Below are positions 29,035-30,910 of a stretch of DNA of 64,000 bases, one piece after another. Source of the stretch: Eledone cirrhosa. Its lineage: Eukaryota. The first letter of the stretch is position 1, and each line of letters begins with the position of its first letter. The DNA lies in the NCBI GenBank assembly GCA_964016885.1, contig OZ024747.1:61380001-61444000 (forward strand), written 5' to 3'. The translations under genes were made by a program, and so were the position numbers. The notes under the pieces were generated by a model. It saw only the letters and a list, made by a program, of their open reading frames with translations. It searched no databases and was not told the DNA's origin.

Positions 29035-29208
29035 AGTTTTAATATAGAAGAGCTTCTACAGGACTAGAACTGTTGCATTCGTGAGAAATCTTCTCACAAA
29101 TGAAACAGTTCTAGTCCTGTAGAAGCTCTTCTATATTAAAACTTTTACACTCTGCTATGTATTGAGTACCTTACTTACTGTGGTTACCTCCGATTCAACC
29201 CGGAATAA

Positions 29209-29211
<3 letters not shown>
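29035..29211 (+). mobile_element. (TA)n-embedded fold-back element, type E
   Basis: About 53-bp inverted arms 29035-29143, then tail with TTGAGTAC. Confidence 0.7.
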
Positions 29212-29258
<47 letters not shown>

Positions 29259-29259
<1 letters not shown>

Positions 29260-29877
29260 GGAAAGTTATATTTAAATTGTTGGGTTACAACTAGTAAATA
29301 TTTATAACTGATATAAAAGCACTCGACAAGTATTTGGAGTATATTTACGATATTAAATAAATGGAAACTATATTTATAAAACCATATTTATTTCATTATA
29401 TATATTTCAGGGATATCATATTAACAATATGCTATGCCTTCCTCAGACAAAATACAATATAAAAAGTTTTATAGATAAATAGATTTGACATACCGTACAA
29501 CATCGACTTGTATTTGAAAAGTTGAATTGGCAGTGAAAAAATTGTACACAGAGAGAAAGAAAGAGAGAAAAAAGGAAAGAACGACAGAAAACGAAGAAAA
29601 AGAAGAAAAAGAAGAAATGCATGGAACAAAATAGAGAGATGGAAAGATAGATAAAGAGAAGAACTTCATGTAAAGAAACAGAGAGATATATATATAGAGA
29701 GAGAGAGGAAATAGAGATAGATATATATATAGAAAACCAGGTAGTGGGACATCCGTTGAGTAAACATATCAATGATACATTTATTTATTATCAATGATAT
29801 TTATTATCAATGATACATTTATTTATATAATGAAATAAATATGGTTTTATAAATATAGTTTCCATTTATTTAATATC

Positions 29878-29878
<1 letters not shown>
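29259..29878 (-). mobile_element. Longer type-B Penelope-like 3' end with short inverted terminal copy
   Basis: 29259-29522 is the reverse complement of 22039-22302; continues into a purine tract; 29825-29878 is the inverted end. Confidence 0.8.
29389..29454 (-). ncRNA. Minimal type-I hammerhead ribozyme (type B)
   Basis: TATTTTGT CTGAGGA AGG..CCT GAAA TATATA TA ATGAAATA; differs from the 22109 copy at the free N7 core position. Confidence 0.85.
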
Positions 29879-29945
<67 letters not shown>

Positions 29946-29975
29946 AGATCAAAAGATGGTTAAAAGAGTTCCATG

Positions 29976-30046
29976 TATTTTATTATGCGCATTTCAAAAA
30001 CAAATATCATCATGGGATGATATTTGCGTTCTCATCAGATAAAATA
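29976..30046 (-). ncRNA. Minimal type-I hammerhead ribozyme (type F, inverted copy)
   Basis: Reverse complement of 30257-30324 with 3-nt duplication at the stem II loop. Confidence 0.85.
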
Positions 30047-30256
30047 GGGAGACATGATATGAAGCTTAAAAAAAAACACTTGCGAGCAGTGAAGTGTTAA
30101 ATCAGATAAAATAGGGAGACATATTATTTATACTCCAGTATATATATATATATAATGTAGGAGGTGAGTTTTATTGTAGCAAAGTAAAGCAATGCAAATA
30201 TCGGATAAGTAGCACTCTACAGTTTGTAGGACTGGAGTATAAATAATATGTCTCCC

Positions 30257-30324
30257 TATTTTATCTGATGAGAACGCAAATATCATCCCATGATATTTGT
30301 TTTTGAAATGCGCATAATAAAATA
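30257..30324 (+). ncRNA. Minimal type-I hammerhead ribozyme (type F)
   Basis: TATTTTAT CTGATGA GAACGCAAATATCAT-CCC-ATGATATTTGTTTTT GAAA TGCGCA TA ATAAAATA. Confidence 0.9.
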
Positions 30325-30354
30325 CATGGAACTCTTTTAACCATCTTTTGATTT

Positions 30355-30393
<39 letters not shown>

Positions 30394-30394
<1 letters not shown>

Positions 30395-30570
30395 CGAAGG
30401 AAATGTAAGGAACCAGGTGGACCATAATGCACCAAAGTACTCAATACTTGAGGTAGTAGAGTGGGTAATAGGAACCAGTAAAACCCCGACAGCTGAGCTC
30501 AATTAGCTGACAGCTGAATTAGCCGTCGAAACGGCTTGAGCTCAGCTGTCGGGGTCTTACTGGTTCCTAT
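30394..30570 (-). mobile_element. (TA)n-embedded fold-back element, type C
   Basis: Hairpin 30468-30570 plus tail; homologous to 43658 and 49487. Confidence 0.75.
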
Positions 30571-30594
30571 ATATATATATATATATTATATATA

Positions 30595-30910
30595 AGCAAA
30601 AGGGATATTCAATTTGTTGGTAATTCAACAAATATAAATGTTTATAACTGATTCAGAGCACTCAACAAGAATTCTGGAGTATAATATTCGATGATATTAA
30701 ATAAATGGAAACTATATTTATAAAACCATATTTATTCTATTATATATATTTCAAGGGTACCAAAACTTTGGTACGCTCTCATCAGATAAAATACAAACTT
30801 TGTTTTATAAATGTTGACATAATCAAGAAAAGATACCTTAACGGTTCAAGTTTTCCTTGGAAGGAAAACTTGAACTGTTAAGGTATCTTCCATTTATTTA
30901 ATATCATCGT
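30595..30910 (-). mobile_element. Penelope-like 3' end, type B' (diverged relative of B)
   Basis: Shares GATATTAAATAAATGGAAACTATATTTATAAAACCATA with type B; internal hairpin 30830-30890; (TA)n on both sides. Confidence 0.75.
30733..30793 (-). ncRNA. Minimal type-I hammerhead ribozyme (type B')
   Basis: TATTTTAT CTGATGA GAGCGTACCAA-AGTT-TTGGTACCCTT GAAA TATATA TA ATAGAATA. Confidence 0.9.

What the first reader, a model, noticed from the sequence alone, without database searches (positions are those of the whole stretch)
29035..30910. Insertion hot-spot: five element types strung along one (TA)n tract with four intact hammerheads in 1.9 kb
Seen: types E, B, F (two inverted parts), C and B' follow one another, separated only by (TA)n. 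Three hammerheads are on the minus strand (30733, 29976, 29389) and one on plus (30257). Inference: each insertion leaves (TA)n on both sides and so regenerates the target. Same-strand B and B' share the TATATA helix III and could form a heterodimeric ribozyme that excises about 1.3 kb of RNA, possibly circularisable as in retrozymes.
Basis: partly seen in the sequence, partly recalled or inferred. Interest (0 to 1): 0.75.

Follow-up and report, generated by a model that had tools for sequence, protein, structure and literature searches.

The report
Stacked Hydra-type Penelope ends, twin hairpins
This stretch is a pile of short end-pieces from five families of a known TA-repeat-seeking jumping gene (Hydra-type Penelope elements), likely inserted one after another and unlikely to work together as a ribozyme, and most such ends stop a few letters before one of two small conserved hairpins that likely tell the copying enzyme where to start.

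Summary
The anatomy is real: five repeat types, (TA)n spacers, four type-I hammerhead motifs. Each type is the cut-short 3' end of a dispersed Penelope-like family. All five join a Hydra-clade RT + GIY-YIG ORF in longer copies, a clade already known to carry hammerheads and target (TA)n. E and C are truncated inside their own hammerheads. The block occurs once. It is not an excess hot-spot: in 600 kb of evenly spaced sample, 12 of 78 elements share a tract versus 9-25 expected; about 17 five-chains are expected genome-wide. The B/B' heterodimer pairs on paper but costs +22 to +35 kcal/mol, mostly because B's own inverted arm captures its cleavage strand; retrozyme criteria fail. The residual interest is a bulged RCTC...GAGY hairpin present twice in each leader (E's second copy deviates): 209 of 211 TA-joined ends lie 3-14 nt before one copy, and a coral Hydra element has it too. 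It likely sets the two reverse-transcription start sites. The scan found this hairpin before on other DNA of this genome.

The parts
29022..29033 (.). (TA)n left flank, continuing into about 250 nt of TA/CA microsatellite
29034..29210 (+). E: Hydra-PLE stub; inverted arm about 29035-29090, direct arm 29091-29143, tail to 29210; hammerhead truncated (GAAA/helix III/site at 29102-29125, CTGATGA lost)
   Evidence: tail runs into a Hydra-type ORF in L192
29149..29169 (+). E hairpin H1 (ACTC...GAGT-AC)
29211..29259 (.). (TA)n spacer, 49 nt
29260..29878 (-). B: 3' end of a young Hydra PLE (737-aa ORF intact in L063); tail 29260-29347, direct arm with 3' UTR, inverted arm 29821-29878
29319..29340 (-). 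B hairpin H1
29389..29454 (-). B hammerhead motif (core 29446-29397, CUGAGGA); cleavage strand predicted to pair with B's inverted arm
29879..29940 (.). (TA)n spacer, 62 nt
29941..30139 (+). F-left: site-1 arm (29941-30103) plus a 39-nt piece identical to F-right's junction (30101-30139)
29976..30046 (-). F-left hammerhead motif (core 30038-29984); predicted to be captured by F-right in a read-through RNA
30140..30154 (.). (TA)n spacer inside F, 15 nt
30155..30359 (-). F-right: two-armed stub; tail 30155-30245 on minus (H1 30238-30212), inverted arm about 30248-30359
30257..30324 (+). F-right hammerhead motif (core 30265-30316), lying in the inverted arm
30360..30393 (.). (TA)n spacer, 34 nt
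30394..30567 (-). C: Hydra-PLE stub; inverted arm 30517-30567, short direct arm with the hammerhead site after 30488, tail with H1 30462-30437; family core is the U3:A8 variant, absent here
30568..30594 (.). (TA)n spacer, 27 nt
30595..30909 (-). B': Hydra-PLE 3' end; tail 30595-30688 (H1 30680-30658), 22-nt inverted arm 30888-30909
30733..30793 (-). B' hammerhead motif (core 30785-30741); the only one not blocked by an inverted arm
30910..30926 (.). (TA)n right flank, continuing into about 900 nt of TA/TG microsatellite

Best explanation
The block is a stack of 5'-truncated 3' ends of five Hydra-clade Penelope-like retrotransposon families, likely inserted at different times into one (TA)n tract and likely inert. 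Shown: each type is a dispersed family whose longer copies join an RT + GIY-YIG ORF; each insertion is an inverted arm plus a direct arm with a tail; ends join (TA)n. Inferred mechanism: the element's endonuclease cuts (TA)n on both strands. Its RT primes from each DNA end, often with 2-4 nt of TA microhomology, a few nt 5' of one of two bulged RCTC...GAGY hairpins in the RNA leader (H1 gives the inverted arm, H2 the direct arm with the tail). The two cDNAs then meet head to head. Because both ends are primed from TA DNA, the tract survives on both sides and later insertions can land beside earlier ones. Chains this long are the rare tail of that random filling. The hammerheads are pLTR passengers and are predicted not to form a joint ribozyme here.
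For: Dispersed families: 866, 660, 1873, 691 and 2983 first-look candidates for B, F, C, E, B' (lower bounds). ORF links: B L063/L066/L062; B' L067 and L068; C L142-L144; F L177/L180/L182/L184/L187 and L261-L273; E L192. Hydra motifs DKT, RWR, YRDD, CxCx5C, CxxC, CxH match Craig 2021 section 11. The model (pLDDT 90.9) hits telomerase RT best. Ends: 147 of 159 followed by TA; 209 of 211 TA-joined ends 3-14 nt before H1 (97) or H2 (112), 128 of the 209 with >=2 nt microhomology; in the evenly spaced sample 67 of 85 ends; chance of the motif in such a window 0.3%. Adjacency is not above null. The block is single-copy. Two start sites and extension of both strands are shown in vitro for a Poseidon PLE (PMC11167929).
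Against: No second individual or haplotype could be bridged, so stepwise order is inferred, not seen. Pfam finds no family in 12 of 12 proteins tried. No tree with the published Hydra sequences was built. The 277 ends come mostly from searches with window copies, which favours ends near the query ends; in the evenly spaced sample 18 of 85 ends were off-site. E's H2 is a different 5-bp hairpin. Isolated hairpins are weak (-0.9 to -6.5 kcal/mol) and the bulged form is the MFE in only 5 of the 9 RCTC-type copies. The families are related, so ten hairpins are not ten independent events. Counting only the 213 TA bases inside the chain gives P(>=5)=1.6e-4.
Confidence: 0.85

Rival explanations
1. True hot-spot: an inserted end, or the pure (TA)n it leaves, attracts further insertions more than an ordinary TA tract does.
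For: No chain of 3 or more among 72 clusters in 600 kb; P(>=5)=1.6e-4 if only the 213 in-chain TA bases count; the elements sit in the purest TA, not in the adjoining TA/TG block.
Against: 12 of 78 elements share a tract versus 9.2 (2-17) under a uniform null and 25 (16-36) under a TA-weighted null. Anchored loci give 86/12/2 singles/pairs/triples of 100, close to geometric. About 17 five-chains are expected genome-wide, and P=0.021 with the 672 local TA bases. The sample is too small to see a heavy tail.
Confidence: 0.15
2. One reading: a minus-strand transcript folds B' and B into a heterodimeric hammerhead that cuts out a 1344-nt RNA which circularises like a retrozyme.
For: All 20 enforced helix I and III pairs are canonical or wobble and the fold is nested; dimeric activation of such motifs is published (PMC4209133).
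Against: +22.2 and +35.0 kcal/mol against the free fold, and still +8.5 with B's arm blocked. The arm duplex is -71 kcal/mol against -3.2 for helix III. Helix I probability is about 0 for B and both F motifs in context, and 0.001-0.13 for B'. The published dimers of minimal PLE motifs cleaved only weakly. There is no tandem unit and the block occurs once.
Confidence: 0.04
3. The block was laid down or copied as one unit (one multi-template event, or duplication of a composite element).
For: F-left shares F-right's 39-nt junction, so local template switching happened; one other locus has an E-type end tail-to-tail with B (L162).
Against: Among 40 scored candidates no other locus covers more than E+B, and the E-type copy in L162 is a diverged, differently truncated one. 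Spacers are TA, orientations are mixed, and nearest-copy identities differ.
Confidence: 0.04

Closest known systems
Hydra clade of C-terminal EN+ Penelope-like elements (Craig et al. 2021, PMC8557442; passages, section 11, supplement search and part 52 of 59 read)
   Same: Single RT + C-terminal GIY-YIG ORF, DKT, CxCx5C linker, CxxC and CxH, hammerhead in the pLTR, (TA)n insertion, inverted 5'-truncated copy, one-sided tail; Hydra-1_Obim is listed from an octopus.
   Different: Five families not matched to a named consensus; RWR rather than RWK; B repeats every 3.8 kb (clade 'generally <3 kb'); tails of about 70-95 nt rather than 30-40; twin hairpins not mentioned in the parts read.
Poseidon PLE of Anolis in vitro (Frangieh et al. 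2024, PMC11167929; parts 1-2 of 4 read)
   Same: Two internal RT start sites bounding the tail, cleavage and extension of both strands, AT-rich target, hammerhead not needed for insertion.
   Different: Other clade; starts lie in an AC-rich stem-loop inside the ORF without homology to the target. Here they lie upstream of the ORF, before duplicated hairpins, often with 2-4 nt of TA microhomology.
Minimal type-I hammerheads of metazoan PLEs (Cervera and de la Pena 2014, PMC4209133; parts 1-2 of 4 read)
   Same: Long helix II, short palindromic helix III, mostly single motifs in truncated PLEs, pairs on opposite strands 100-700 bp apart, U3-A8 core variant (family C).
   Different: Helix II closes with A-U, G.U or U.U rather than the usual G10.1-C11.1 in B, B', F and E.
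Metazoan non-LTR retrozymes (Cervera and de la Pena 2020, PMC7229834, passages; Li et al. 2026, 10.64898/2026.07.22.740005, part 1 of 5)
   Same: Type-I hammerheads, PLE ancestry.
   Different: Retrozymes are head-to-tail tandem units of a few hundred bp, each with the ribozyme; this block is a single-copy mix of five families in mixed orientation.

Membership tests
Penelope-like elements (EN+) | Telomerase-like RT and GIY-YIG endonuclease in one ORF | tested here: met
   737-aa ORF in L063 with YRDD and VY...YVG; top three fold hits are telomerase RT. Pfam gave no family; the endonuclease call rests on motifs read by eye.
Penelope-like elements (EN+) | pLTR with hammerhead, partial tandems, inverted 5'-truncated copy, one-sided tail | tested here: met
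Hydra clade | DKG changed to DKT | tested here: met
   DKT in B and E, DKS in F; not seen for C or B'
Hydra clade | RWK motif at the N-terminus | tested here: inconclusive
   RWR in B, C and E, a conservative variant
Hydra clade | CxCx5C linker; CxxC and CxH around conserved E and N; no CCHH | tested here: met
   B CNCRDRSKC/CDLC/CKH, C CNCPDRSIC/CNLC/CKH, F CNCPVRTKC/CNLC/CLH, B' CNCRIKSNC; absence of CCHH read by eye
Hydra clade | Insertion into (TA)n | tested here: met
   147 of 159 ends; 63 of 68 sampled elements have TA on at least one side against a 9% background
Hydra clade | Placement in the Hydra clade on an RT tree | not tested
   The published reference sequences could be read but not loaded into the tools
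Naiad/Chlamys | N-terminal endonuclease, no canonical hammerhead | tested here: not met
   Endonuclease is C-terminal and hammerheads are present
Minimal type-I hammerhead | CUGANGA, GAAA, UH site, helices I and II, palindromic helix III | tested here: met
   Four motifs; 0 in 2000 shuffles; no Rfam score
Minimal type-I hammerhead | Self-cleavage as monomer or dimer | not testable with these tools
   Folding predicts three of four are blocked in a read-through RNA
Non-LTR retrozyme | Two or more consecutive tandem units, each with a full hammerhead | tested here: not met
   No tandem unit; block single-copy
Non-LTR retrozyme | Expressed monomeric linear and circular RNA | not testable with these tools
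   No data on expression were obtained

The most novel reading that the evidence does not exclude
Hydra-type Penelope elements carry a duplicated bulged RNA hairpin (RCUC-stem-2 nt bulge-GAGY), conserved from this genome to a coral, that loads two RT-endonuclease units and fixes one start site for each end of a cut in (TA)n. That would explain the one-sided tail, the inverted arm and the self-renewing TA target in one rule. Directional allele differences between arms hint that the two arms can be copied from two different pLTR copies or RNAs.
Probability: 0.6. Interest if true: 0.65.

Novelty: new member of a known kind. Interest (0 to 1): 0.4.

Why it matters
The pile-up itself is ordinary debris in a genome that holds, by extrapolation from 600 kb, some 3-4 x 10^5 such pieces, and it warns against reading close hammerhead pairs as retrozymes. 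What could matter is the end rule. How Penelope elements make their inverted arm and one-sided tail is an open question that Craig 2021 names, and it has been probed in vitro in only one clade in the papers read. A short RNA signal that sets the start sites is directly testable with the intact young B family, and would be a handle for a telomerase-like, microsatellite-targeted insertion enzyme.

Tried and rejected
Rfam: no hammerhead family at gathering or at E<=10; the miRNA hits are the fold-back arms, all below gathering. MITE or miRNA reading of E and C: rejected, since longer copies extend into hammerhead, 3' UTR and ORF. Naiad assignment: considered, rejected on domain order and motifs. 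Pfam: 0 families in 3 + 9 proteins. PDB by sequence: none for one protein, weak retron RT hits for the profile (best E 0.023). Metagenome scan for relatives: 548 pattern matches, none confirmed. Sequencing runs: no RNA holder listed. Laying four runs gave only family-level pile-ups and no piece spanning the block, so polymorphism was not testable. No second haplotype of the right flank among the listed matches. E beside an ORF in L146 and F beside an ORF in L159 proved not contiguous and were dropped. One folding script crashed without output, so two-strand dimer energies were not obtained. MAFFT did not align the ten hairpins in register, so no covariation statistic was computed; they were compared by anchored motif and local folds. 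In one search the B' and E references were unsuitable; the count was redone, where reference-specific changes still inflate B' and E site-2 distances. The automatic chain rule split the window chain 3+3 at the F junction, so it may under-call long chains elsewhere, and the library held only five families.

Full report
Observation. The window lies in a 3.0-Gb animal genome (G000:C7). Between 29034 and 30909, six segments of five types alternate with near-pure (TA)n spacers of 49, 62, 15, 34 and 27 nt. A descriptor scan finds four type-I hammerhead motifs at the stated places, and none in 2000 Markov shuffles of the block. Rfam scores none of them.

What the pieces are. Each type is a dispersed family: 866 (B), 660 (F), 1873 (C), 691 (E) and 2983 (B') first-look candidates, with 40 scored each. 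B is the 3' end of a very young element: L063, L066 and L062 hold an open reading frame of 710-747 codons on the hammerhead strand, and L061 shows pLTR copies 3.8 kb apart. C runs without a break into a 600-aa frame in L142, shared at 96-99% with L141, L143 and L144. F joins the ORF C-terminus in 5 of 12 loci, and its tail runs into the ORF start in 6 of 14. B' does so in L068 and most of L274-L293, and E in L192. Longer E copies carry a full CTGATGA core and longer C copies a TTGAGAA core, the U3-A8 variant described by Cervera and de la Pena 2014. The window's E and C are cut inside their hammerheads, so all five types are the same kind of object.

Family. The B and C proteins show YRDD, a CxCx5C linker, CxxC and CxH, and a C-terminal VY...Y(V/I)G endonuclease motif; B also shows DKT, and both have RWR. 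These match the Hydra clade as defined in Craig et al. 2021, which has canonical hammerheads and in which almost all families insert into (TA)n; the supplement lists an octopus member. Pfam gave nothing for 12 of 12 proteins. There are 205 relatives at E<=1e-20, the best about 39% identical and mostly unnamed; three listed ones are from Argonauta hians. The AlphaFold model from a 90-sequence alignment (pLDDT 90.9) matches telomerase RT in its top three hits. No tree was built.

Anatomy and end rule. Each insertion is an inverted arm, then a direct arm with a tail, between TA tracts: the published PLE layout. 147 of 159 distinct family 3' ends are followed by (TA)>=3, and 6 of the 12 exceptions are copies that read on into the leader. 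Where the leader continues, a motif RCTC-upper stem-2 nt bulge-GAGY-RC occurs twice, 71-94 nt apart: ACTC...GAGT just after the outer end of the inverted arm (H1) and GCTC...GAGC just after the element's 3' end (H2). The upper stems differ between families but can pair (CAG/CTG, TAC/GTA, CTAC/GTAG). E's H2 is a different 5-bp hairpin. Of 277 distinct ends, 211 join TA; 209 of these lie 3-14 nt before H1 (97) or H2 (112), and 128 of the 209 share >=2 nt with the TA primer. Those loci were chosen with window copies as queries. In 60 evenly spaced 10-kb stretches, 67 of 85 ends fell at the two sites, and many of the 18 others look like diverged relatives where the alignment stopped early. The motif starts in such a window by chance 0.3% of the time. 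H2-like copies are visible by eye before three further ORFs (L159, L204, L253), and the coral consensus Hydra-2_Amil ends with the same bulged hairpin (read by eye; a weaker variant in Hydra-1_Amil, none evident in the part of Hydra-1_Obim shown). Against: the hairpins are weak alone, the bulged form is the MFE in 5 of 9, and the families are related.

Mechanism (inferred). Frangieh et al. 2024 showed for a Poseidon element that the protein cuts and extends both strands of AT-rich DNA, starts at two internal sites that bound the tail, is predicted to be a dimer, and does not need hammerhead cleavage. The simplest reading here is that each end of a cut in (TA)n primes cDNA a few nt 5' of one hairpin; the H1 product becomes the inverted arm, the H2 product the direct arm with the tail, and both outer flanks stay (TA)n. 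F is a more complex case: F-right is a complete two-armed stub, and F-left is a further H1-primed arm of another allele that ends in 39 nt matching F-right's junction, so it formed with or after F-right.

Hot-spot? The 600-kb sample holds 68-78 segments of these families and close relatives and 43 hammerhead motifs. Clusters: 66 singles, 6 pairs, no triple; around 100 distinct anchored loci, 86/12/2. 12 of 78 elements share a tract, against 9.2 (2-17) for uniform and 25 (16-36) for TA-weighted placement. A geometric tail gives about 17 chains of five in the genome; the local Poisson chance is 1.6e-4 or 0.021 depending on how much flanking TA is counted. The chain is rare but needs no special attraction; a heavy tail is not excluded by this sample. 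The block is not repeated: of 40 scored candidates none covers more than E+B. Nearest fetched copies are 99.6% (B), 100% (F hammerhead part), 98.3% (E), 97.3% (B') and 96.4% (C) identical, compatible with different ages. Presence-absence polymorphism could not be tested.

Heterodimer? The B'/B dimer is sequence-compatible, with 20 of 20 enforced pairs allowed, and the cuts would release 1344 nt. It costs +22.2 or +35.0 kcal/mol against the free fold. B's inverted arm is transcribed first and pairs with B's cleavage strand (-71 kcal/mol, against -3.2 for helix III); with the arm blocked +8.5 remains. The two F motifs are each other's antisense (-174 kcal/mol), and helix I probability in context is about 0 for B and both F motifs and at most 0.13 for B'. 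These are equilibrium predictions without proteins. Published minimal PLE motifs were inactive as monomers and weak as dimers. Retrozymes are tandem units; this is not one.

Novelty and verdict. The locus is a new instance of a known kind: Hydra-PLE stubs in (TA)n. The twin hairpin was not in the papers listed by searches or in the parts read. I reached it, before the look-ups; eight earlier, mostly unreviewed notes of this scan report it on other DNA of the same genome, which is not independent support. One further lead: in two-armed insertions the arms differ one way at single sites (C: direct T / inverted C in 11 of 44; E: direct A / inverted G in 14 of 23; no recurrent reverse case), while other variable sites agree (12 of 12, 8 of 9). 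Query choice favours these combinations, so it is only a hint of two templates. Interest 0.4.

Noticed in passing
C family H1-20 and E family H1-51, in loci from searches and in the window copies: The two arms of one insertion differ in one direction at a single family-polymorphic site (11 of 44 in C, 14 of 23 in E) while other variable sites agree; may mean two pLTR copies or two RNAs as templates. Query bias applies.
   Followed up: partly
L090, L099, L102, L103, L142 (family C): Hammerhead with the U3:A8 core covariation (TTGAGAA), known from Schistosoma PLEs.
   Followed up: partly
window 21860-22484: A second two-armed B insertion with two CTGAAGA hammerheads on opposite strands, next to a further B/B'-type piece across (AT)18.
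   Followed up: partly
window 43660-43851 and 49489-49687: Two more C-related fold-back stubs.
   Followed up: no
window 55220-55278: A further type-I hammerhead motif of another family.
   Followed up: no
window 32307-36250: 48-bp minisatellite of about 82 copies that also forms arrays on at least eight other contigs.
   Followed up: no
window 12888-12945 (-): Partial tRNA-like match, 32.4 bits, probably a SINE head or pseudogene.
   Followed up: no
L064:1325-5041 (-): Open 1239-codon frame with RT-like and C-terminal GIY-YIG-like motifs of another PLE type, beside a B element (read by eye).
   Followed up: no
L142:471-6836; L131/L132: Insertions in which both inverted arms keep the tail (a 3-kb palindrome in L142), i.e. 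both arms appear to start at site 2.
   Followed up: no
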